The translations under genes and the position numbers were made by a program. The notes under the pieces were generated by a model that saw only the letters and a program-made list of their open reading frames with translations, had not been told where the DNA came from and did not search any database. A stretch of DNA of 64,000 nucleotides from Ostreococcus lucimarinus (Eukaryota): NCBI GenBank assembly GCA_000092065.1, contig CP000590.1. One strand, written 5' to 3'. Of this stretch, positions 28,921 to 43,744 are shown in pieces. The number at the start of each line of letters is the position of its first letter. Within the stretch, counting starts at the first letter, position 1.

Positions 28921-31900
28921 TTAATGCGTCAAGCGCTGAAGCTCTTCGACGCGACGAATGATTTCGGCGCGATCGCACTTCATGTCAGCGGCGACGACGT
29001 CGGCTTGCTCGACTTTTAAGTCGAGAAACGATTCGACGAGGTCGCCGTCGACGAAATTCCTCGAAGGATCGCTCTTGCGGCGAAGCGTGTGGCGGAATGA
29101 ACGCCACTCCGCGTGTTTCAAGCCACCGACGCCTTGGATGTGCTTGTTCATGGAGGTTTGAAGGCGCTCGGCGAAATCGTAGGCGTCCTTCGGCAGACTG
29201 GCCAAGACGCCGATGACGCCGTTACCAGTGCCGAAGAGCAAAGTGGGGACTTCTAAACTGTCGCCATCTTTGAGGCTCATGACGAGTGAACCAGGAGAGA
29301 ACACGTTGACGAACTCACCTAGGTGATACTCGCCCGTGATTTCCAAACGACTACGCTCTTCGTCCGTCATAGCGTTCATGTTGCGAGCGACGGTAAACAG
29401 GTTCAAGCTGTTCTCGGCGCCGAGATAGGTTTCGTCATCGTCTAACATCGCCACCGCAGTCATCCAATTTGCGTTAAAGTCTCTCGCGATCTCGTCGATC
29501 GCGCCTTCTTCGGGCTTGTACTGTAACAGCGACATGGACTTAAGCAAATCGCCGACGAGAATCCAATCGCCTCTCGTCTTGACGGAGAACGTGATGATTT
29601 GGCCGTGGTGCGAGCACTCGCTCACCAGCTCGTGCGCGTCGTCTTCGCGCGGTGTCCATTTGAATAGCTCTAGCTTAGAATTGATCCCCGCGAGAAGTTT
29701 ACCCTTGAATGCGTTCAAGTTGTACACGGCGCCTCGAACTTCTTTCTCGGATACGAGTTCAAGGGCGTCCGCCTCAACGCGTAAGACGAGAATGCGCCCG
29801 CGCGACGGTTCATCTTCTTGCTCGTAAGCAAACCCCGTACCGACGACGTAGTACTCTCTCGAATCGCCCGCGAACGAGCACGACATCAAGGAACTCGCCA
29901 ATTCGTGCTCTTCTAATCGAAACTGGTGGAGCGTGTCAAACGAACCGTCGTCGATGAGTCTGATGAAGAGTTCTTGATCACCCTTCGACATCAAATGCTC
30001 GACCGCGACCGCGAATGTGTTCGTGTCGACCTGATGCGCGATCCTACGCGGGTGACCACCGAGTGGGATCGTGCGAATGTGCAGCTTTTGAATGTCGTCA
30101 ATCCCGCCGATGGTTAAATCTTCGTCGCCCGCCAACGCGAGAGCGTCCGGGAACGCTTCGCTGCTGAACGGACAGACATGCAACACCTCTTGCACGTTGA
30201 CGTTGGAGTAGATTAGCTTTTTGTTGTTGCTGAAGATCACCGTCGGCCTATCCGACGCCGCGAACACACTACTCACATTCGTCGCATGGCTCTTAAACGT
30301 TTGCAACGTAATCGGCTTGGTACCGAGGCTCAATTTTTTGCGCCCGCTCAAAGCCCCAGTGTTCTGATCTAAAACGTACGTGATCAACTGACCGTCACCT
30401 AAGCCTACGAACAAGTATGGAATGTCTTCGAACGAACACAGCAACGTCGATCGAGGGATGATGTCTTCATCTGTACTTTCTTTCGTGATGACGCTCAAGT
30501 CACTCATTGACGCGAGCACGATATCCATGGACCACAAACCAACCGCGCACACCGGCGAGCTCATCCCATCGCCCATGGGCGTGCAATCTAAGCAAGCTAT
30601 TTCGTTCTCGAATGTCTTACTCGCCAAGAGGACGATTTTGCCCTTCGCCACGTTCAAGCAGTGTAACTGCCCGCCCGCCGCTGCAACAAGAATTTGAGTC
30701 GGGTTGCACTTCGCCGAAAGAATCTCCGCACCGTCCTTTGGCTTCCATTCATCGAGTAAGTCGCCACCTCTTGAGACGAGGCGGACGCCCCTGTGCGTCA
30801 CTTGAAGGAAAACATTGCCTTGCATGTTGCCACAGCACAAAGTTTGCGCTTCAGCGTCGAAACCCGCAATTTCTGTCTCGTCCAACGTGTCCCCTTCGTC
30901 CCCGACAAAGCCCAAGATGCGAGTTTCGTTTATGAATGTGACGACCAAGTACTTATCCATTTGGCTATCGTCGCTATCGCGAAGTGAAAACAAGCCTTTG
31001 ACACCGGGAAGCTGAATCACCGCTTGCTCGTCAATGCCTATGCCGTTGCGCACTACGCGTAAACTCCCATCTTTTAACGCCCCGCTACACGTAACCACTT
31101 GCCCTTGACCGTGCCGCTCTAAGTCAACGAATGCAAAGTCTACAATGGGACCGAGATTGGTGAACTCTTCTAAAATTTGCACGTACGTCGGGTTGCCGTC
31201 TTTATCGATGCTCGTCTTCTCCGCGTGCAGCTTGATGAGTTGCGAGTCGCCGTACGTGCTACCGACGAATACCACGCCGTTATCGAGATAGCTAAGCGTA
31301 CTCGCGATTGACGTGTCGCCAAGTCTCTCAATTTTAAGCTCTCGAACGCGCTTGCCGTCGTGTAAGATGACGAGCAAGTAGAGCATGCCGTCCGCGTCGC
31401 CCAGCAGGTAGCGCGAGCCGTCCGGATCAATAGCGCCGTAGCACGTGATGTTCGTCCGATCGGGGATGTTGGGGATGTTGATCGCTTTGAGAAACACATC
31501 TGCGTCGTCTTCGAACTTGTTCAAGTACACGATAATTTCCTGCCCCAAGACGACGACACCGCCGATGGGCGCGGGGACCGGAATTATTTTATTCGAGCCA
31601 CCCTCTAAATCGTTCTGCGCCCAAGGCGACGACACGAATTCCTTCTCGCGAATGCCGATCTCGTACGTCTTAATGTGTACCGCATCTTTAGTGTCTCGGT
31701 AAAGCACCGCGATCGTCGGCTTGGGCGTGCCGTGCAAGAACTTGATGTCCTCCACGCGCAACTCCTCGAGGCGAATGTTAAACGCCTCCTTCACCCCGCC
31801 CTTTTCGTCGCACGGAATCACCTTGAATAATCCGTCGTACAGCCGCAACCCGATCGCTCGACACGTGTCATCCACGATCCCAATCTGTCCATCATCCGCC

Positions 31901-32413
31901 GGTCGACCGATATTATCCTGCACGTCCCCGAACGCCTCCGTCTTCAACTCTTCGTTCGCCTCGTCGTACGACAGCACCGTAAACCCATACCTCTCCGTCG
32001 TCAGGTACAACCGCGCCTTCCCATCGCCCGATCCCGTTTGGCACAGCGACATCGTCGCGATTCGACCATTTATCGGCACATCCAGCACCGGTTTCAGCCC
32101 CTCCGCGTGCAAGCGATACACCTCCAGTCGCGTGCTCTTCGCGACGATTAAATCAGTCGCCTCGCTCGACGTAAACTTTCCCACGGCCGAGTGCGTGACC
32201 ACGGTGGGTTTGTGCGCCTGCGGAAACCACGCGTCGTCGTCGTCGTCGTCGTCAGTCGATCGCTCGTCATCGCGCAGAGCGTCGCGCAGTCGGTCGTTCG
32301 CTCGGTCGTCAACGATCGAGCGTCGCGTCGCTTCGCGTCGTACGCGCGCGCGCGCACCGTGACGACGTAATTGTGCTGACACCGCGCGCCTGAACCGCTC
32401 TCGCGCGCGTCCT
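28921..32413 (-). CDS. DDB1: DNA damage-binding protein 1 (DDB1; CUL4 adaptor) - two exons: 32348..32413 and 28921..32217, intron 32218..32347
   Basis: Three beta-propeller architecture; exon 2 begins AHKPTVVTHSAVGKFTSSEATDLIVAKSTRLEVYRL (human [34 protein letters not shown]); exon 1 found by hand: ATG ACG AAC GAG ... AAT TAC GTC GTC ACG = MTNEDARESGSGARCQHNYVVT (human MSYNYVVT) followed by GTGCGCG donor; acceptor TTTCCGCAG|GCGCAC. The first ~100 aa of listed ORF 28921..32520 are intron/5'-region read-through. Confidence 0.85.
32218..32347 (-). other. Spliceosomal intron of DDB1 (130 nt, GTGCGCG...TTTCCGCAG, phase 0)
   Basis: See DDB1 feature; splice restores the conserved NYVVT-A(Q/H)KPT N-terminus. 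Confidence 0.75.
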
Positions 32414-32709
32414 CGTTCGTCATCGCGTCGAGGTCTTCGCGCGTCGCCGAGTGCGGATTGGCAGCTTGGATTGGGCGGCGACGGCGAGACGCGGCCGCGG
32501 CGCGCGCTTCGCGAGGGCATTCGGTCGTTCGAGGATCGAGCGGTGCGCGAGTTCGAGAAACGCAGATGCGCATATTTTGTGGCGTTGCAAAGGCAGGCTG
32601 GCGGCGGGGTGATGTCGATTTCGCGAAGCGCGAGGCGTGGGTGCGGGAAGCGCCGCGTCTGCGGCTGGCGGGAATAAAACGCGACGCGAGATGAGAACGC
32701 GGCGCGAGA

Positions 32710-36167: not shown

Positions 36168-37368
<1,201 letters not shown>

Positions 37369-37463
37369 ACGGACCGCATCGATCGCGCGACGACGCGACG
37401 ACGCGACGACGCGACGACGCGACGACGCGACGCGCGAACGCGCGAACGCGCGAACGCGCGACG

Positions 37464-38375
37464 ATGTCGCGACGCGACGACGACGATCGCGATCGACGCG
37501 ACGCGCGCGAACGCGCGACGTCGCGCGAACGCGATCGAGACGACGGACGACGACGGGACGGCGGCGACGGCGCGCGATTCGGATCGAACGGCGGCGACGG
37601 CGAGCGACGGGACGAACGACGCGCGCGCGATGAGGACGAACGAGGACGAGGCGAACGACGGGATGGCGATAGGTTCGGGCGACGGGACGAGCGCGAGCGC
37701 GATCGAGGCGGGGGAGGCGGACGGGGGGGAGGGGAACGCTTCGACCCGGACGCGGATTGGAGGTGCGCGGAGTGTAATAATTCGAATTTTTCGTGGCGGA
37801 AGAGCTGTAAGCGATGCGGGGCTGGGAAATCGAAGGAATTGAAAGAGCGCGAGCGCGCGGCGCAGGCTGGGTGGTTGTTGGATGGGTTGGAGGACACGAC
37901 GAATCGAATCTTTATTAAAGGTTTCGACGCCGCGAGCACGAGCGAGGACGATTTGCGAGAGGTGTTCTCGGGGATCGGGATCATCTCCAGGGTGCGGCAG
38001 CGCACGGGATTCCCAGATCAATGGCCGTATGCGGTGCGCATATACCTGGATGAACGAGGACAAAAGAAGGACGAGGCGGTGATTACGTACGACGACCCGC
38101 ACGCCGCGCAGTCGGCGCCGAGCTTTTACGACGGGTACGAGTTGAACGGGAAGAAGCTCCACGTATCCATCGCGCAAAGTAAGCCGAAATCTGCGCCACC
38201 ACCGTCTTCGGGTGGTGGTGGTGGTGGCGGCGGTGGCGGCTACGGCGGCGGCGGCTACGGCGGCGGCGGTGGACGTGGCTACGGCGGCGGTGGACGCTCG
38301 TACGGGGGTGACCGACGCGACGATCGAGGCGGATATCGCGACGATAGAGGTGGATATCGCTCGCGGCCGTACTAA
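37464..38375 (+). CDS. FUS/TAF15-like RNA-binding protein: RD/RE-rich N-term, RanBP2-type zinc finger, RRM, C-terminal GGY/RGG repeats
   Basis: C-terminal 303 aa of ORF 36213..38375 (upstream 417 aa are antisense to ADK). DWRCAECNNSNFSWRKSCKRCG (RanBP2 ZnF W-x-C-x2-C...C-x2-C), RRM RIFIKGFDAASTSEDDLREVFSGIGII...DEAVITYDDPHAAQSAPSFYDGYELNGKKLHVSIA, then GGGGGGGGGGYGGGGYGGGGGRGYGGGG...RDDRGGY. Confidence 0.7.
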   Translation: MSRRDDDDRDRRDARERATSRERDRDDGRRRDGGDGARFGSNGGDGERRDERRARDEDERGRGERRDGDRFGRRDERERDRGGGGGRGGGERFDPDADWRCAECNNSNFSWRKSCKRCGAGKSKELKERERAAQAGWLLDGLEDTTNRIFIKGFDAASTSEDDLREVFSGIGIISRVRQRTGFPDQWPYAVRIYLDERGQKKDEAVITYDDPHAAQSAPSFYDGYELNGKKLHVSIAQSKPKSAPPPSSGGGGGGGGGGYGGGGYGGGGGRGYGGGGRSYGGDRRDDRGGYRDDRGGYRSRPY

Positions 38376-38544: not shown

Positions 38545-41500
38545 CTACGAAGCCTTGTTGAGGGAGAGAATCTTCAGATGGCCGCGGGAATTGGCGGCGA
38601 GAAGGTGTTTGGAGTTCGGAGACCACACGACAGATGAGATAAATCCACCCTTGTCGCGTCTGTTGTGCGACATCGGCGTCGGCTTGTCGGCGAAGCCGTA
38701 GTGCGCAACGGGAGAGGATGCATGTTTCGCGTACACGTGCACGATGTTGTCTTCCGAACCGCACGCGATGTACCCATCAGCGTTGGTGCTCAACCCGACG
38801 AAGTTCTTCTCGTTGGTGTGGCCCACGTACGTTCGCACGCACGCCGTTCTGGGATCGTTTCTCTTGATGTCCCAAAGCTTGAGCGTGTTATCCGTCGACG
38901 CCGAAACCAACTCATCGCCGACCCAGTGCACGTAAGAAACGGCCTTACGATGGCCTTGCAGCGTCATCAAAGGCGTGCTCGGCTGGCGAAGGTCGTACAC
39001 ATGGATCCTGTGATCGGCGCTTCCGATGGCGAGCATATGTGCCGACGTCGGGTGGAATTTCACCGAGCACACGTTGGCGCGGTTTTGAAGCGTGCACACG
39101 CCTTCCTTCGTCGTCGTGGAAAAGATGCGAACCGTACCGTCGTCAGACGCGCTGGCAAGCTTAGTCGGGTCGATGTGGCTAAAGTCGATACTCCACACTC
39201 GTCTTCTGTGGGTGGTGTTCTCCCAGGTGGACGTTTCTTTCTGCACATCCCAAAGTTGTACGACGCCTTGATAATCACCAGACGCGATGGATTGCTTCAC
39301 GTACGGGTTGTAGCACAACGCCGAAACCTTGGAGTGCGCTTCAAACTCCACCGCTGGGCAGTGCACGCGCGCTCCTAAAGTCATCACCGCACTCGTCTCG
39401 TATACGCAAATGGACTTGCTCGTACCCGCCGTAGCGAACAGCTCGCCATCCCGATCCCAGCTCGCGCAACACACCATGGAATTATTTGCCGCGAAATCGG
39501 CGAAGTCGCCGCCTATCGAGGCGCACCGCTTGATGGAAACCGCGCGAGTCACCAAACATATTTCGTTCTCAAACTCTTCCAGAGCGTCACGAACGGCCGT
39601 AGTATCGACGCCATCCGCTCGAACGCGTTTCAACCAAGCGGCGTCCGAATCGCCCTTAGTGCCGCCCTCCTTTATCGCCACGGCGCACTTGTCGAAGAGA
39701 CCGCGCTCTAAATCCGCGAACACGGCCGGTTCGAGCGATTTGGGCGACTTGAACGCCGTGTGTACGACTGAATCAAGATCCTTGAGCGTCAGAGTCTCGT
39801 CGTCGTAGCACTCCATCGCGTGTTCGACGACTCTCGCGCGTTTGCGATCAGGCGAATCAGAGTGCTCTGAAGCGCTCCCTTTGGCGACTCCTGCTTCGGC
39901 GAGCAAAACGTCGAGCATTCCGTGAGATTGCGTCAACTCGCGCAGTTGAGAATCTCTGGCCGTTCGTAAAGTCTCCAACACTGTCTCAAGACGCTTCAAA
40001 GTCTCCAAGCGTCGCTCAGTCTCCACGCCGTGCGCGCGCGCATCACCCGCCACCGTTCGCAACCGCTCGCTCGCGTCTCTCGCGGTGGCGCGATCTTTTT
40101 GTCTAAGGAGGGAGACGACAACCTTGGCGGCGGCGAGCTCGCCCGTCATCGCGCGCTTTGCGAATCCACTCATGGTGATGACTTTCTCCAGCGCCTTGGC
40201 CGGGTAGTCAGCTTCGTACATCGTGACGAAGACGTCGGGCCAGAACATGTTGAGAATCACCAAGCCGACAACAAACAGAGGGTCTTGATCGCCGAGCTCT
40301 TGCGCGAGCTCCACGAATGTGTACTCGTCTTGGTCCGCTGCCACTTGAGAACGCGCTGCGAATGAGATCGCACCTTGAGGACTGATGTCGAGGCAGTTGG
40401 CGTCGAATAGCTCGTAAGACGCGTACCCGCAACCGTTGACGGCGTCGACGAAGGCGAGAATCTGGCCGGCGACGTGCCAACGCTCCTCTTTTTGCGTCGC
40501 TTGCGCCCCCGCGGATTCGTCGTCAAGCCATTCCCTCAGTCGTCGGGAGCCGTTTTCTAATCCCGACAACGGCGCGGGCAACGGCCGCACGATGGACTCG
40601 GGGACGACGCGACTTCGCGCCTCGTCGCCTTTGCCGGCGTCGGCGGCGTCGATGACCATTTTCACCACGCTCCCTTGCGACACATTATCCATCTGCTGCG
40701 CCGCAGTAGGCGCCGCAAACGGATACGCGGCGACATCCGCCTTGACACTCGCTCCAGTCGCGGCGAAACTCAGCGTGGAGTTGTTTCTAGGCAAAGTCGG
40801 CGACGGCGTCGGCGACGGCGACTTGGCCGTGGCGTTGGCGTCTTCGCTACCCATCCCCTCCGGCACGTGCTCGGGCACCGCCGGCACGCCGTGCACTAAC
40901 TCCCCTCTATCTTCGTCTTCGTCTTCTAAAATCTCTTCCCCGTTTTCAAACCGCGGCACCGCGCGCGACGACTGTATCTGCGACTTTCTCCACACGTGCT
41001 GCCACATGTGCTTGACGGCTTTTCTACTCACGGGTTTAAGCAAATAGTCTTCCGCCCCGTATTGAATGCACCTAAACACCGTATCGCTGTGCTCGTTCGC
41101 ACTCATCATGATAACCGGCATGTCTCGCAATCGCTCGTCGTTGCGCACTATTTGCAACAGCGCCGGTCCGTCGATGCCCGGCATCATGACGTCGGTGAGC
41201 AACAAGTGAAACTCCGTCCCTCGTCTCAACAGCTCCAGCGCCTCTTCTCCCGATTCCGCCGTCGTCACGCGATACCCACACTTTCGCAATAACGACGACG
41301 TTACCGTCCGGCATATCCTCTCGTCGTCCACGACGAGCACGTGCACGTCCGAAGTCGCCGTCGGTCCGTCGCCGCCGCTCGTCGCGCTCGTTCGCCGCGT
41401 CCGCGTCTCCATCGTCCCGTGTCGTCTTCGCTCGTTCATCTCCGTCATCGACTGCGCGCGTCGTCGCGAGGTATCCACGCTCGTCGTCCGCGTCGCCGCG

Positions 41501-41745
41501 CGCGTCGACGCCTCCGCGTCCCTCGACGACGTCGCCGCCATCGGTGCGCGCCCTCGCGTCGACGTCACGCCGTCTCCAGCGCTGCCGCCCCGCGCGCGTC
41601 GTCGTCGCGACGCCGTCCGCGCCGAGCCGTCGAGGACGCGCGGGCGACGATCGCGCGTCGTCGCGATCGAGCGCGCGCGCGGTGACGCGCGCGCGTCGTC
41701 GTGTGGCGTCGGCGCCGACGCCCCGACACCCGGCCGCGCGGCCAC
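38545..41745 (-). CDS. Receiver-domain / kinase-like / coiled-coil / COP1-SPA-type WD40 fusion protein
   Basis: 1066 aa. N-terminal REC domain HVLVVDDERICRTVTSSLLRKCGYRVTTAESGEEALELL...HLLLTDVMMPGIDGPALLQIV...MPVIMMSANEHSD...AEDYLLKP (phospho-acceptor Asp in LLLTDVMMP). Middle degenerate kinase-like segment (ILAFVDAVNGCGYASYELFDANCLDISPQGAISF) and coiled coil (RLETLKRLETVLETLRTARDSQLRELTQ). C-terminal 7-blade WD40 closely matching COP1/SPA (DRDGELFATAGTSKSICVYE; SKVSALCYNPYVKQSIASGDYQGVVQLWDV; GSADHRIHVYDLRQPSTPLMTLQGHRKAVSYVHWV..ELVSASTDNTLKLWD; YVGHTNEKNFVGLSTNADGYIACGSEDNIVHVY; LLAANSRGHLKILSL). Confidence 0.75.
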   Translation of the reverse strand: MAARPGVGASAPTPHDDARASPRARSIATTRDRRPRVLDGSARTASRRRRARGGSAGDGVTSTRGRAPMAATSSRDAEASTRAATRTTSVDTSRRRAQSMTEMNERRRHGTMETRTRRTSATSGGDGPTATSDVHVLVVDDERICRTVTSSLLRKCGYRVTTAESGEEALELLRRGTEFHLLLTDVMMPGIDGPALLQIVRNDERLRDMPVIMMSANEHSDTVFRCIQYGAEDYLLKPVSRKAVKHMWQHVWRKSQIQSSRAVPRFENGEEILEDEDEDRGELVHGVPAVPEHVPEGMGSEDANATAKSPSPTPSPTLPRNNSTLSFAATGASVKADVAAYPFAAPTAAQQMDNVSQGSVVKMVIDAADAGKGDEARSRVVPESIVRPLPAPLSGLENGSRRLREWLDDESAGAQATQKEERWHVAGQILAFVDAVNGCGYASYELFDANCLDISPQGAISFAARSQVAADQDEYTFVELAQELGDQDPLFVVGLVILNMFWPDVFVTMYEADYPAKALEKVITMSGFAKRAMTGELAAAKVVVSLLRQKDRATARDASERLRTVAGDARAHGVETERRLETLKRLETVLETLRTARDSQLRELTQSHGMLDVLLAEAGVAKGSASEHSDSPDRKRARVVEHAMECYDDETLTLKDLDSVVHTAFKSPKSLEPAVFADLERGLFDKCAVAIKEGGTKGDSDAAWLKRVRADGVDTTAVRDALEEFENEICLVTRAVSIKRCASIGGDFADFAANNSMVCCASWDRDGELFATAGTSKSICVYETSAVMTLGARVHCPAVEFEAHSKVSALCYNPYVKQSIASGDYQGVVQLWDVQKETSTWENTTHRRRVWSIDFSHIDPTKLASASDDGTVRIFSTTTKEGVCTLQNRANVCSVKFHPTSAHMLAIGSADHRIHVYDLRQPSTPLMTLQGHRKAVSYVHWVGDELVSASTDNTLKLWDIKRNDPRTACVRTYVGHTNEKNFVGLSTNADGYIACGSEDNIVHVYAKHASSPVAHYGFADKPTPMSHNRRDKGGFISSVVWSPNSKHLLAANSRGHLKILSLNKAS

Positions 41746-41966
41746 GTCACGGGGCGATCGTGGATTTCACATTTACGCGCGAGCGTCCCGTGCGCATGGG
41801 ACTCAGAACGACCCGAATACGCATCGTGGACGACGCGCACGCCACCAAAACCGCGATCGCGCGATCGCCACGCCCGCGCGTCGGCCGTCGCGCGCGCGTC
41901 GGCCGCGCGACGCGATCGCGTCGTCACTTCACGCATCGACGAAGCCAATGGTGCGCGCGATGCGAT

Positions 41967-42001
<35 letters not shown>

Positions 42002-42604
42002 GGACGAGGACGATCGAGGGCGCGCGCGCGAGACCGCGCGCGGGGCGCCGCGGCGGGGTTCGGGACGGGACGACGCGGGACGAGGATGTCGCGTTATCCG
42101 ACGTGGGCGATCGAGCGCGACGATCGGGACGCGCGATGGCGTCGCGCGCGACGCCGTGGGGGTCGCGATGCGCGCGAATGATGGGGAAAAAATTCGCGCG
42201 TCGAGTGACGCCGCGTCGAGGGCGAACGCGGGCGCGAGGACGCGAGGACGCGCGCGCGATGGGGCGTCGGGGACACCGCCACGGGGACATCGCGATCGAG
42301 CGCGCCGTCGGCGTCCGACGCCGCGCGAACGAAAGACGGCGCGGGGGCGACGCGACGCGGACGCGCGGCGCGACGAACGGGGCTCGTCTCGCGCTCTCGG
42401 AGCGTCGAACGGCCGCGCGGCGTGGGCGACGACGCGCGGGCGCCGCCGATCGCGCGCGCGCGGGGTGGATAAACCACCCGCGCGCGCGTCGAGGGGGTCG
42501 GGGCTGGGTCGCGACTCCTCGTCCACGACGAATAGTGTTGAATCGACCGCGAGAAGCGCCGAGACTGACCGAACGCGCGCGCGTGTTTTTCGTGTTGTTT
42601 ACAG

Positions 42605-43744
42605 TCGTTCACTGGCCTCACCTCTACCGCGCTCCCCACCAAGGCGGAGCAAACCTTCACCGGTCGCGTCGCGCGCCAAACCGCCACCAAGGCGACTGGC
42701 GCGAAGACCGTCGCGGCGATGAAGGGTAAGCAATGCAAGGTTGCCATCAACGGTTTCGGCCGCATCGGCCGCAACTTCTTGCGATGCTGGCACGGACGCG
42801 CCAACACCATGCTCGACATCGTCGCCATCAACGACTCGGGCGGAGTGAAGCAAGCGAGCCACTTGGTCAAGTACGACTCCGTCCTCGGCACGTTCGAGGC
42901 GGATGTCAAGATCATCGACGACACGCACATCTCCATCGACGGCAAGTCCATCGAGATTGTGTCTTCCCGTGACCCGCTCCAGTTGCCGTGGAAGGCTCTC
43001 GGCGTCGACATCGTCATTGAAGGTACCGGCGTCTTCATCGACACCCCGGGCGCCTCCAAGCACTTGACCGCGGGCGCCAAGAAGGTTGTCATCACGGCCC
43101 CGGCCAAGGGTGACGACATCCCGACCTACGTCCTCGGTGTCAACGCCGACCAGTACAAGAACACCGACAAGATCGTCTCCAACGCGTCGTGCACGACCAA
43201 CGGCCTCGCGCCGTTCGTCAAGGTTCTCGACGACCGATTCGGCATCGTCAAGGGTTTGATGACCACCACGCACTCCTACACCGGTGACCAGCGCATTTTG
43301 GATGCGTCTCACCGTGACTTGCGCCGCGCTCGCGCCGCCGCCTTGAACATCGTGCCGACCTCCACCGGCGCCGCCAAGGCTGTCGCGCTCGTCTTGCCGC
43401 AACTCAAGGGCAAGCTCAACGGCATCGCGCTCCGCGTCCCGACGCCGAACGTGTCCGTCGTCGATCTCGTCATCCAAACCTCCAAGAAGGTCACCGCCGA
43501 CGAAGTCAACGCCGCGTTCCGTGAAGAAGCCGCCGGCAAGCTCAAGGGTATCCTCGCCGTCGCCGACGAGCCGCTCGTGTCTTGCGATTTCAAGTGCTCC
43601 GACGTCTCCACGTCCATCGACGCCGCGCTCACCATGGTCATGGGTGACGACATGTTGAAGGTTGTCGCGTGGTATGACAACGAGTGGGGCTATTCGCAAC
43701 GCGTAGTGGACTTGGCGGAATTATGCGCAGCAAACTGGGAATGA
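42605..43744 (+). CDS. GAPA: Glyceraldehyde-3-phosphate dehydrogenase A, plastid NADP-type (GapA); exon 2 (transit peptide tail plus mature protein)
   Basis: Frame open from 42569; [65 protein letters not shown]...[23 protein letters not shown]...SCTTNCLAP-like [11 protein letters not shown]...[16 protein letters not shown]. Strong acceptor TGTTGTTTACAG|TCG at 42604/42605; no in-frame ATG before MKGK, so an upstream exon is required (see findings for ATG-only exon candidate at 41948..41950). Listed ORF is 42719..43744. Confidence 0.9.

What the first reader, a model, noticed from the sequence alone, without database searches (positions are those of the whole stretch)
38545..41745. Unusual fusion: response-regulator receiver domain + pseudokinase + coiled coil + COP1/SPA-type WD40 propeller
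One uninterrupted 1066-aa ORF combines two parts that are not usually found together. The N-terminus is a bona fide two-component receiver (REC) domain with the phospho-acceptor Asp context LLLTDVMMPGIDG and a conserved K in LLKP. Downstream is the architecture of plant SPA1/COP1 photomorphogenesis repressors: a degenerate kinase-like segment, a coiled coil, and a 7-blade WD40 almost colinear with the COP1/SPA WD domain. COP1 carries a RING at its N-terminus and SPA proteins a kinase-like domain; a REC domain in that position would make COP1/SPA-type substrate recruitment controllable by His-Asp phosphorelay, or could be a pseudo-receiver as in the circadian PRR/TOC1 proteins. I do not recall this architecture being described.
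Basis: partly seen in the sequence, partly recalled or inferred. Interest (0 to 1): 0.7.

Follow-up and report, generated by a model that had tools for sequence, protein, structure and literature searches.

The report
Receiver-domain SPA1 homologue of Ostreococcus
This is the single SPA1-type light-signalling gene of the marine green alga Ostreococcus lucimarinus, which carries a bacterial-style "receiver" switch domain at its front end like SPA1 in other chlorophyte algae; the fusion is real, but it was reported in 2019 and this gene was catalogued in 2018 and 2025.

Summary
Window 38545-41745 (minus strand) is one uninterrupted ORF. It encodes a canonical receiver (REC) domain, a degenerate kinase-like domain, a long helix and a COP1/SPA-type WD40 propeller.

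The window is Ostreococcus lucimarinus chr10, and the gene is ORCAE model Ol10g03450 (CDS 38545-41448).

- Gabilly et al. [quoted passage not shown]
- An ISME J 2025 paper lists this gene as "Rec-WD40", conserved in all Mamiellales examined.
- A 2018 DWD survey paired its truncated NCBI model (XP_001420221.1) with Arabidopsis SPA4.

What I add:
- All five receiver active-site residues are invariant in 14 aligned family members, so this is probably a real phospho-acceptor and not a pseudo-receiver.
- The same architecture occurs in Volvocales, Trebouxiophyceae and Prasinodermophyta.
- A conserved VP-motif module follows the REC domain.
- DDB1 lies about 6 kb away, and that linkage is conserved in Ostreococcus and Bathycoccus-like contigs.

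Verdict: already known, low interest. What the receiver does remains untested.

The parts
38545..41745 (-). Uninterrupted 1066-codon ORF, listed from GTG; the end coordinate includes the stop codon
38545..41448 (-). Annotated single-exon CDS Ol10g03450 (967 aa, MTEMNERR...). An alternative upstream ATG at 41541 gives the 998-aa product called on Tara contigs
41008..41340 (-). Receiver (REC) domain, ORF aa 136-246. Active-site residues are D140, D141, D185 (phospho-acceptor, codon 41191-41193), S215 and K237, followed by a WQHVWR tail
40849..40962 (-). Conserved VP / acidic / VP-x-VP module just after REC (ORF aa 262-299; AVPRFENGEE...GVPAVPEHVPEGMG). It is an island of conservation (0.70 identity) in a linker that is otherwise 0.22
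   Evidence: M. pusilla orthologue
40048..40548 (-). Degenerate kinase-like domain, C-lobe fold only (ORF aa 400-566). It has no HRD or DFG catalytic motifs and no detectable N-lobe
39895..40035 (-). Long helix (ORF aa 571-617; extends to aa 555 in the full-length model), the candidate coiled coil. It aligns with the start of the SPA coiled coil through P0022
38560..39489 (-). COP1/SPA-type seven-blade WD40 propeller (ORF aa 753-1062). The equivalents of COP1 K422, Y441, W467 and F595 are ORF K806, Y825, W851 and F982
38863..38910 (-). DDB1-binding DWD box LVSASTDNTLKLWDIK (ORF aa 946-961). A second, looser box, LAIGSADHRIHVYDLR, lies 41 residues upstream

Best explanation
The ORF is the single SPA (SUPPRESSOR OF PHYA-105) homologue of Ostreococcus lucimarinus, in the 'chlorophyte SPA1' form: an N-terminal two-component receiver, then a kinase-like domain, a coiled coil and a COP1/SPA WD40.

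Shown here: the domains, their order, the conserved receiver active site, the conserved VP-peptide pocket and DWD box, the kinase C-lobe fold, and membership of a REC-bearing algal clade that is distinct from RING-bearing COP1.

Inferred:
- The WD40 recruits VP-motif substrates or photoreceptors.
- The helix pairs the protein with COP1 and/or itself.
- The DWD box docks it on CUL4-DDB1.
- The protein therefore acts as a substrate-receptor or regulatory subunit of a light-signalling E3 ligase, as was shown genetically for Chlamydomonas SPA1 (repression of photoprotection genes together with CUL4, upstream of CrCO).
- The receiver is phosphorylated on Asp185 (ORF numbering) by the alga's single HPT protein. 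HPT is fed by LOV-HK and Rhod-HK, which the literature reports as the only two histidine kinases in O. tauri. Blue and green light would thereby tune ligase activity.
For: REC: PF00072, 94.5 bits. All five active-site residues are invariant in 14 sequences.

WD40: E=3e-84 to the Arabidopsis COP1 WD40. The equivalents of K422, Y441, W467 and F595 are invariant. Their roles, and the requirement for the SPA1 equivalents K767 and W812, are in PMC6745501. A DWD box is present.

Kinase-like domain: a kinase C-lobe fold in the window protein. The relatives P0020 (Prasinoderma) and P0022 (Elliptochloris) carry sequence-detectable SPA-type kinase-like domains: E=1e-24 to a land-plant SPA outside the WD40, and the profile hits eIF2-alpha kinases at 3e-21.

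Phylogeny: in the WD40 tree the REC-bearing algal clade has 100% support, is separate from the RING-COP1 clade, and a chlorophyte RING protein groups with plant COP1.

Distribution: REC-bearing members are named in Chlamydomonas eustigma, Gonium, Astrephomene, Micractinium, Trebouxia, Prasinococcus and Prasinoderma.

Literature: chlorophyte SPA1 has an N-terminal CheY-like domain and acts with CUL4. Rec-WD40 (Ol10g03450), HPT, LOV-HK and Rhod-HK are present in all Mamiellales examined. XP_001420221.1 is paired with SPA4, and a different protein, XP_001417064.1, with COP1.
Against: The kinase-like domain of the window protein fails every sequence test: no Pfam hit, BLASTP to a plant SPA E=0.42, no PDB profile hits, and hhalign only 19% probability. 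That membership feature therefore rests on a predicted structure from an 8-sequence alignment and on colinearity with relatives.

The split that places the algal clade with plant SPA rather than with COP1 has only 57% bootstrap support in a simple NJ tree.

No phosphotransfer, COP1 binding, DDB1 binding or substrate has been shown for this protein or for any orthologue's receiver, and I found no follow-up paper on it. I did not verify the presence of COP1 in O. lucimarinus; that rests on a BLAST table in PMC5749748 (47% similarity).
Confidence: 0.75

Rival explanations
1. The receiver is a pseudo-receiver, as in plant PRR/TOC1 clock proteins. It would serve only as a protein-interaction module and would not be phosphorylated.
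For: Eukaryotic receivers fused to unusual outputs are sometimes degenerate. There is no experimental phosphorylation data for any SPA receiver.
Against: The DD pair, the phospho-acceptor Asp, the Ser and the Lys are invariant across 14 sequences from Mamiellophyceae, a trebouxiophyte and Prasinoderma. The domain aligns end to end with bona fide response regulators: ARR1 at 1e-25, and PhoB and CheY. A matching HPT and two histidine kinases are reported in all Mamiellales examined.
Confidence: 0.12
2. REC and WD40 are two adjacent genes, as the WD40-only NCBI model XP_001420221.1 implies, and the long ORF is an accident of high-GC sequence.
For: The NCBI model appears to cover only about the last 310 residues, because its DWD boxes are at positions 151 and 192. 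High-GC Ostreococcus DNA produces many long spurious ORFs.
Against: There is no stop in 1066 codons. The region between REC and WD40 is conserved and predicted to fold: C-lobe pLDDT 84-93 plus a long helix. The same colinear protein is encoded in other Ostreococcus clades, Bathycoccus-like contigs, Prasinoderma (one ORF), Elliptochloris (an annotated multi-exon gene) and Volvocales. The ORCAE models in seven Mamiellales genomes are Receiver-WD40.
Confidence: 0.03
3. It is the alga's COP1 orthologue, in which the RING was replaced by a receiver.
For: The best solved-structure matches are COP1 WD40 domains. JGI pipelines label some orthologues 'E3 ubiquitin-protein ligase RFWD2'.
Against: PDB holds COP1 and RUP2 but, among the matches returned, no SPA, so that ranking is biased. 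There is no RING hit among the 25 best of 39 Pfam families listed. A kinase-like domain is present. The WD40 lies outside the RING-COP1 clade, which contains a chlorophyte RING protein. A different O. lucimarinus protein is listed as the COP1 hit.
Confidence: 0.03
4. It works as a stand-alone DCAF, a CUL4-DDB1 substrate receptor that is independent of COP1 and switched directly by receiver phosphorylation.
For: DWD boxes are present. DDB1 is encoded about 6 kb away, and that linkage is kept in another Ostreococcus clade and in Bathycoccus-like contigs despite rearranged intervening genes. The reported O. lucimarinus COP1 hit is weak, at 47% similarity.
Against: Gene linkage in eukaryotes rarely indicates function, and the linkage is absent in Elliptochloris and Prasinoderma. 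The helix in the position of the COP1-binding coiled coil is retained. In Arabidopsis and Chlamydomonas, SPA acts with COP1.
Confidence: 0.2

Closest known systems
Chlorophyte SPA1 (Chlamydomonas reinhardtii SPA1; Gabilly et al. 2019, PMC6717296)
   Same: N-terminal canonical CheY-like receiver, kinase-like domain and C-terminal COP1/SPA WD40 in one protein, with a single SPA gene per alga. Volvocalean proteins (C. eustigma, Gonium, Astrephomene) are recovered by the family profile with REC plus kinase-like domain plus WD40.
   Different: In Ostreococcus the kinase-like domain has lost all recognisable sequence motifs and apparently the N-lobe. The protein is shorter (967-998 aa, against 1039-1647 in Volvocales). 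I could not obtain the CrSPA1 sequence itself, so orthology is inferred through its relatives.
Mamiellales 'Rec-WD40' putative response regulator (ISME J 2025, PMC12704426)
   Same: It is this gene: Ol10g03450, with identical start, length and strand.
   Different: [quoted passage not shown] Here it is identified as the SPA homologue.
Land-plant SPA1-SPA4
   Same: Kinase-like domain, coiled coil and COP1-like WD40 with conserved VP-pocket Lys and Trp and a DWD box. The family profile aligns as a single stretch from the C-lobe to the C terminus in about 40 REC-less representatives whose lengths suit SPA proteins.
   Different: Land-plant SPAs have no receiver. Their kinase-like domain is detectable by sequence, and they are regulated by direct binding of phytochromes and cryptochromes.
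COP1 / RFWD2
   Same: WD40 about 45% identical, the same VP pocket, the same two DWD boxes and a preceding coiled coil.
   Different: COP1 has an N-terminal RING and neither a receiver nor a kinase-like domain. It forms a separate clade in the tree.
Plant type-B ARR and PRR receivers
   Same: The receiver is most similar to ARR1 among solved structures (1e-25). From my own recollection, the WQHVWR tail resembles the ARR-B family.
   Different: The output is an E3-ligase substrate-receptor module, not a GARP/Myb or CCT domain. The phospho-acceptor Asp is retained here; its replacement in plant PRRs is established knowledge that I did not test.

Membership tests
SPA (SUPPRESSOR OF PHYA-105) family | C-terminal COP1/SPA-type WD40 propeller with the VP-peptide pocket (equivalents of COP1 K422, Y441 and W467; SPA1 K767 and W812) | tested here: met
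   E=3e-84 to the Arabidopsis COP1 WD40. The K, Y, W and F equivalents are invariant in 14 sequences. The residue roles come from PMC6745501.
SPA (SUPPRESSOR OF PHYA-105) family | Ser/Thr kinase-like domain N-terminal to the coiled coil | tested here: inconclusive
SPA (SUPPRESSOR OF PHYA-105) family | Central coiled coil that mediates COP1/SPA oligomerisation | tested here: inconclusive
   A helix of 47-63 residues is predicted in the right position, and it aligns to the start of the SPA coiled coil through P0022. The crude heptad score was not decisive. Oligomerisation cannot be tested with these tools.
SPA (SUPPRESSOR OF PHYA-105) family | The WD40 groups with SPA and not with RING-bearing COP1, and there is no RING | tested here: met
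   NJ tree: algal REC clade 100%, plant SPA 96%, COP1 clade 57%, with a chlorophyte RING protein inside COP1 at 84%. No RING among the Pfam families listed. Support for the deep split is only moderate.
SPA (SUPPRESSOR OF PHYA-105) family | Binds COP1 and CUL4-DDB1 and represses light responses | not testable with these tools
   Only the DWD boxes are visible. Genetic evidence exists for Chlamydomonas SPA1.
Chlorophyte SPA1 subtype (REC-SPA) | Canonical CheY-like receiver at the N terminus of the SPA protein | tested here: met
   PF00072, 94.5 bits at ORF aa 136-246, upstream of the kinase-like domain. The feature is described in PMC6717296.
Two-component response regulator (phospho-accepting receiver) | Receiver fold with the acidic pair, phospho-acceptor Asp, conserved Ser/Thr and Lys | tested here: met
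   D140, D141, D185, S215 and K237 (ORF numbering) are invariant. Model pLDDT is 82-91 with alternating strands and helices.
Two-component response regulator (phospho-accepting receiver) | Receives a phosphoryl group from a histidine kinase or HPt protein | not testable with these tools
   Candidate partners are reported in the genome: HPT Ol08g04140, LOV-HK and Rhod-HK. None lies in the window.
COP1 / RFWD2 E3 ligase | N-terminal RING finger | tested here: not met
   No RING family among the Pfam hits listed. My C3HC4 pattern search found RING only in REC-less representatives.
Pseudo-response regulator (PRR/TOC1 type) | Receiver lacking the phospho-acceptor Asp, plus a C-terminal CCT domain | tested here: not met
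   The phospho-acceptor Asp is present and invariant, and the C terminus is a WD40, not a CCT domain.

The most novel reading that the evidence does not exclude
The most novel reading has three linked parts.
(a) The N-terminal receiver is the ancestral state of SPA in green plants. It is present in Prasinodermophyta (Prasinoderma, Prasinococcus), which PMC7455551 places before the Chlorophyta/Streptophyta split, and would have been lost on the streptophyte line when phytochromes and cryptochromes took over SPA control.
(b) In Mamiellales the photoreceptor histidine kinases LOV-HK and Rhod-HK signal through HPT directly to this E3-ligase subunit.
(c) The conserved acidic VP...VP-x-VP module right after the receiver is a built-in pseudo-substrate for the VP pocket of the protein's own or COP1's WD40, and receiver phosphorylation sets its exposure.

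The full-length AlphaFold model gives no support for (c): the module has pLDDT 24-37.
Probability: 0.15. Interest if true: 0.6.

Novelty: already known. Interest (0 to 1): 0.2.

Why it matters
COP1/SPA is the central repressor of light signalling in plants, and in Chlamydomonas it controls photoprotection genes. A phospho-accepting receiver on SPA implies that in chlorophyte algae the ligase is wired to His-Asp phosphorelay rather than, or in addition to, direct photoreceptor binding.

Ostreococcus would be a very clean system for testing this. O. tauri is reported to have only two histidine kinases, both photoreceptors, plus one HPT and about five receiver proteins.

That idea is already in the literature (2019), and the gene is already listed (2018, 2025), so the finding itself adds little. 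The useful contributions here are:
- connecting the 'Rec-WD40' entry of the Mamiellales clock/light catalogue with SPA1;
- showing that the kinase-like domain survives only as a fold;
- flagging that the NCBI model of this gene appears to be truncated to the WD40.

Tried and rejected
- The third homologue search, with the kinase-like plus coiled-coil segment of P0022 alone, returned only unnamed metagenomic fragments. I suspect alanine-rich words filled the candidate list. I used named land-plant SPA isoforms instead.
- BLASTP of the window's middle region against a plant SPA N-terminal segment was not significant (E=0.42).
- The Mamiellophyceae-only profile found no solved structure at E<=10.
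- Profile-profile comparison gave only a 51-column match at 19% probability.
- My first attempt at the window comparison was out of frame.
- The first bootstrapped tree timed out and was redone with numpy distances.
- Foldseek against AFDB50 was unavailable, so I could not ask whether the closest predicted folds are SPA proteins.
- A full-text search for ostta10g03410 found no paper, and I found no follow-up on the SPA1 receiver.
- The bacterial promoter/terminator scan of the intergenic region is irrelevant for a eukaryote.
- The crude heptad score did not single out the long helix.
- The full-length AlphaFold model did not dock the VP module onto anything.
- DDB1 linkage as evidence of function was considered and set aside. 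It is conserved only in Ostreococcus and Bathycoccus-like contigs and travels with a wider syntenic block (PfkB, WD40 gene).
Full report
**Observation**

The window carries an uninterrupted ORF on the minus strand at 38545-41745, 1066 codons as listed from a GTG. A eukaryote will not start at GTG. The in-frame ATGs are at 41541 and 41448. The first gives the 998-aa product that gene callers report on Tara Oceans contigs with identical flanking genes. The second is the start of the curated ORCAE model.

Pfam finds Response_reg PF00072 at ORF aa 136-246 (E=5.7e-27; 94.5 bits against a cutoff of 30.2), plus WD40 repeats. Against solved structures, aa 753-1062 match the Arabidopsis COP1 WD40 at E=3e-84 and human COP1 at about 1e-76. 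RUP2 scores 4.5e-44 and generic WD40 proteins 1e-26 or weaker. The receiver matches ARR1 at 1e-25.

**Organism and gene identity**

The neighbouring GAPDH (42719-43741) is identical to Ostreococcus lucimarinus CCE9901 XP_001420043.1. Table S3 of PMC12704426 gives the O. lucimarinus 'REC-WD40' gene Ol10g03450 as chr10 585,448 -> 582,545, starting ATGACGGAGATGAACGAG / MTEMNERRRHGTMETRT. That is exactly window 41448 -> 38545, so the window corresponds to chr10:544,001-608,000.

The full-length product is absent from NCBI and UniRef. The NCBI model XP_001420221.1 has its DWD boxes at residues 151 and 192, whereas the second box is at residue 878 of the 998-aa product. It therefore appears to cover only about the last 310 residues, and no other domain is recorded for it.

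**Prior art**

- Gabilly et al. [quoted passage not shown] They show genetically that CrSPA1 and CUL4 repress photoprotection genes upstream of CrCO.
- PMC12704426 (ISME J 2025) lists Rec-WD40 as one of four additional putative response regulators of O. tauri. It is present in all Mamiellales genomes examined and co-expressed with CRY-DASH in all three genera. [quoted passage not shown]
- PMC5749748 (2018) pairs XP_001420221.1 with Arabidopsis SPA4 and a different protein, XP_001417064.1, with COP1. It states that each microalga has one SPA homologue.
- I found no later paper that tests the receiver.

The architecture and the gene are therefore both already known.

**Receiver**

I aligned 14 family members: four or five Ostreococcus clades, Bathycoccus-like sequences, Prasinoderma coloniale, Elliptochloris bilobata and one unassigned sequence. 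In that alignment the acidic pair (VLVVDDE), the phospho-acceptor Asp (LLLTDVMMPG), the Ser (MMSAN) and the Lys (LLKP) are invariant, as is a WQHVWR tail. The domain aligns end to end with bona fide response regulators, and it is modelled with pLDDT 82-91. This favours a real phospho-acceptor over a PRR-like pseudo-receiver. Phosphotransfer itself cannot be tested here.

**Kinase-like domain**

The window's middle region has no Pfam hit. It shows no significant BLASTP similarity to a land-plant SPA N-terminal segment (E=0.42). A profile of Mamiellophyceae sequences finds no solved structure at E<=10.

The more distant family members are clearly SPA-like outside the WD40:
- The Elliptochloris segment matches a land-plant SPA at E=1e-24 over 164 residues, including the LRHRILP...EA.FC..LLHP.P..RP signature and the start of the coiled coil.
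- A profile of these segments hits eIF2-alpha kinases at 3e-21.
- Prasinoderma has a near-threshold Pkinase match (29.3 bits against 31.7).

Profile-profile comparison links the two groups only weakly, over the helix-E / catalytic-loop region (E=1.2e-3, probability 19%).

Reading alignment A1, the positions aligned to the catalytic loop and the DFG motif carry no catalytic residues. In the full-length model nothing folds between the receiver and the C-lobe (model residues 191-322 have pLDDT below 50), so no N-lobe is visible.

The erosion looks graded. M. pusilla keeps '...LGAMRPSALTISPQGEV'. The Bathycoccus-like sequences keep 'LYETLPSE', 'SELVSLGALVSEMF' and 'LVSRDPRHRIS'. Ostreococcus keeps almost nothing.

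**Helix and WD40**

A helix of 47-63 residues follows the C-lobe. It has a 3/4 leucine spacing and aligns with the start of the SPA coiled coil, but my crude heptad test was inconclusive.

In the WD40, the equivalents of COP1 K422, Y441, W467 and F595 are invariant in the family. PMC6745501 shows that K422, Y441 and W467 line the VP-peptide pocket, and that the SPA1 equivalents K767 and W812 are required for function. The DDB1-binding DWD box LVSASTDNTLKLWDIK is present, and a second box, LAIGSADHRIHVYDLR, matches those of COP1 and SPA1.

**SPA or COP1?**

I built a neighbour-joining tree of 33 WD40 domains (336 columns, 200 bootstraps). It gives:
- a REC-bearing algal clade at 100%, which also holds Volvox, Asterochloris and Mesostigma fragments;
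- land-plant SPA at 96%;
- a RING-bearing COP1 clade at 57%, within which a chlorophyte RING protein groups with plant COP1 at 84%.

The window protein is thus not the alga's COP1. Combined with the kinase-like domain, it is best filed as SPA, although the deep split has only moderate support.

**Distribution**

An exhaustive profile search of 1.84 billion representatives returned 150 best hits. With home-made HMMs and a RING pattern these sort into:
- about 23 further REC-bearing clusters, most with a strong SPA-type kinase-like segment;
- about 40 REC-less proteins of 800-1270 aa with a strong kinase-like segment, matched colinearly from the C-lobe to the C terminus (the land-plant SPA pattern);
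- 36 RING proteins.

Named REC-bearing members come from Chlamydomonas eustigma, Gonium pectorale, Astrephomene gubernaculifera, Micractinium, Trebouxia, Prasinococcus capsulatus and Prasinoderma coloniale. None of the named ones is a streptophyte. PMC7455551 describes Prasinodermophyta as diverging before the Chlorophyta/Streptophyta split. Parsimony therefore suggests that REC-SPA is ancestral and that the receiver was lost on the streptophyte line. This is an inference. The Mesostigma sequence available is only a WD40 fragment.

**Mechanism**

Shown:
- a receiver with an intact active site;
- a kinase-fold remnant;
- a long helix;
- a COP1/SPA propeller with an intact VP pocket and DWD boxes, all in one gene that is conserved across green-algal classes.

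Inferred from what is established for Arabidopsis and Chlamydomonas COP1/SPA: the protein is a substrate-receptor or regulatory subunit of a CUL4-DDB1(-COP1) ligase that targets VP-motif transcription factors such as CO-like proteins.

Inferred from the two-component inventory reported for Mamiellales (two photoreceptor histidine kinases, LOV-HK and Rhod-HK, and one HPT): Asp185 is phosphorylated through HPT in a light-quality-dependent way, and this tunes ligase activity. I put the gene's identity at about 0.9 and the full mechanism at about 0.5.

**Things noticed**

(i) Right after the receiver there is a conserved module: AVPRFENGEE, then an acidic run, then GVPAVPEH(VPEG). V195, P196, E199, G201, E203, E214, G218, V219, P220, V222 and P223 (998-aa numbering) are invariant in Ostreococcus and Bathycoccus-like sequences. 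Mean identity is 0.70, against 0.22 for the linker that follows. M. pusilla has QMVPRFENGRE...LPVPETEEY. VP motifs with upstream acidic residues are the ligands of the COP1/SPA pocket, so a pseudo-substrate role is conceivable. The full-length model leaves the module disordered (pLDDT 24-37), so the idea remains speculative.

(ii) DDB1 is encoded at 28924-32520 (1031 bits to human DDB1, against 169 for SF3B3), about 6 kb from the SPA gene. The linkage is kept in another Ostreococcus clade (75% identity) and in Bathycoccus-like contigs (44% identity, inverted, with different intervening genes). It is absent in Elliptochloris and Prasinoderma. Conserved synteny is the most likely explanation.

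**Verdict**

Interest is low (0.2). The open question, what the receiver does to COP1/SPA, is real and testable in Ostreococcus, but others posed it in 2019.

Noticed in passing
window 28924-32520 (-): A 1199-aa gene is DDB1 (1031 bits to human DDB1, against 169 bits for SF3B3). DDB1 is the CUL4 adaptor that DWD-box proteins such as COP1 and SPA bind, and it lies about 6 kb from the SPA-like gene. The linkage recurs in another Ostreococcus clade (L007, 75% identity) and in Bathycoccus-like contigs (L005/L006, 44% identity, inverted, with different intervening genes). It is absent in Elliptochloris (L009) and Prasinoderma (L010).
   Followed up: yes
window 40849-40962 (-): A conserved acidic VP...VP-x-VP module sits immediately after the receiver (AVPRFENGEE...GVPAVPEHVPEGMG). 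Its identity is 0.70, against 0.22 for the rest of the linker, and it is also present in M. pusilla. It resembles the VP peptides that bind the COP1/SPA WD40 pocket. The full-length AlphaFold model leaves it disordered, so a pseudo-substrate role is unsupported so far.
   Followed up: partly
window 38545-39490 (-) versus NCBI XP_001420221.1: The NCBI protein model for this locus appears to be truncated to the WD40. Its DWD boxes are at residues 151 and 192, against residue 878 for the second box in the 998-aa product, and no other domain is listed. This would explain why the full-length product is missing from NCBI and UniRef. The ORCAE model Ol10g03450 is full length.
   Followed up: partly
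window 40048-40548 (-) and orthologues P0015, P0020-P0022, Mipuc01g07200: The kinase-like sequence motifs erode in a graded way across the family. They are clear in Prasinoderma, Elliptochloris and Volvocales, partial in Micromonas and the Bathycoccus-like sequences, and essentially erased in Ostreococcus, although the C-lobe fold is still predicted with confidence.
   Followed up: partly
window 37304-37373: A perfect 13-bp tandem repeat, ACGGATCAAAAAC x5.4, followed by imperfect CG-rich repeats up to about 37660. It lies between the PfkB-family gene and the RRM gene. Translated, it gives the '[13 protein letters not shown]' repeats seen in spurious ORFs.
   Followed up: no
window 37350-38372 (+): The downstream neighbour encodes an RRM (33.7 bits) and a below-cutoff RanBP2-type zinc ribbon, with RGG/GGY-rich tails. 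From memory this resembles a FUS/TAF15-like RNA-binding protein.
   Followed up: no
window 41544-43699, both strands: Several overlapping 340-390-aa ORFs rich in Arg and Ala run on both strands between the SPA gene and GAPDH and across GAPDH. Metagenome gene callers even call one of them as a 341-aa protein (L001). They have no Pfam hits and look like high-GC artefacts.
   Followed up: partly
P0225 (Trebouxia sp. C0006, 579 aa): This annotated protein has REC joined almost directly to the WD40, with no kinase-like domain or coiled coil. Trebouxia sp. C0004 (P0372, 941 aa) has all the parts. A mis-modelled gene is more likely than a real short isoform.
   Followed up: no
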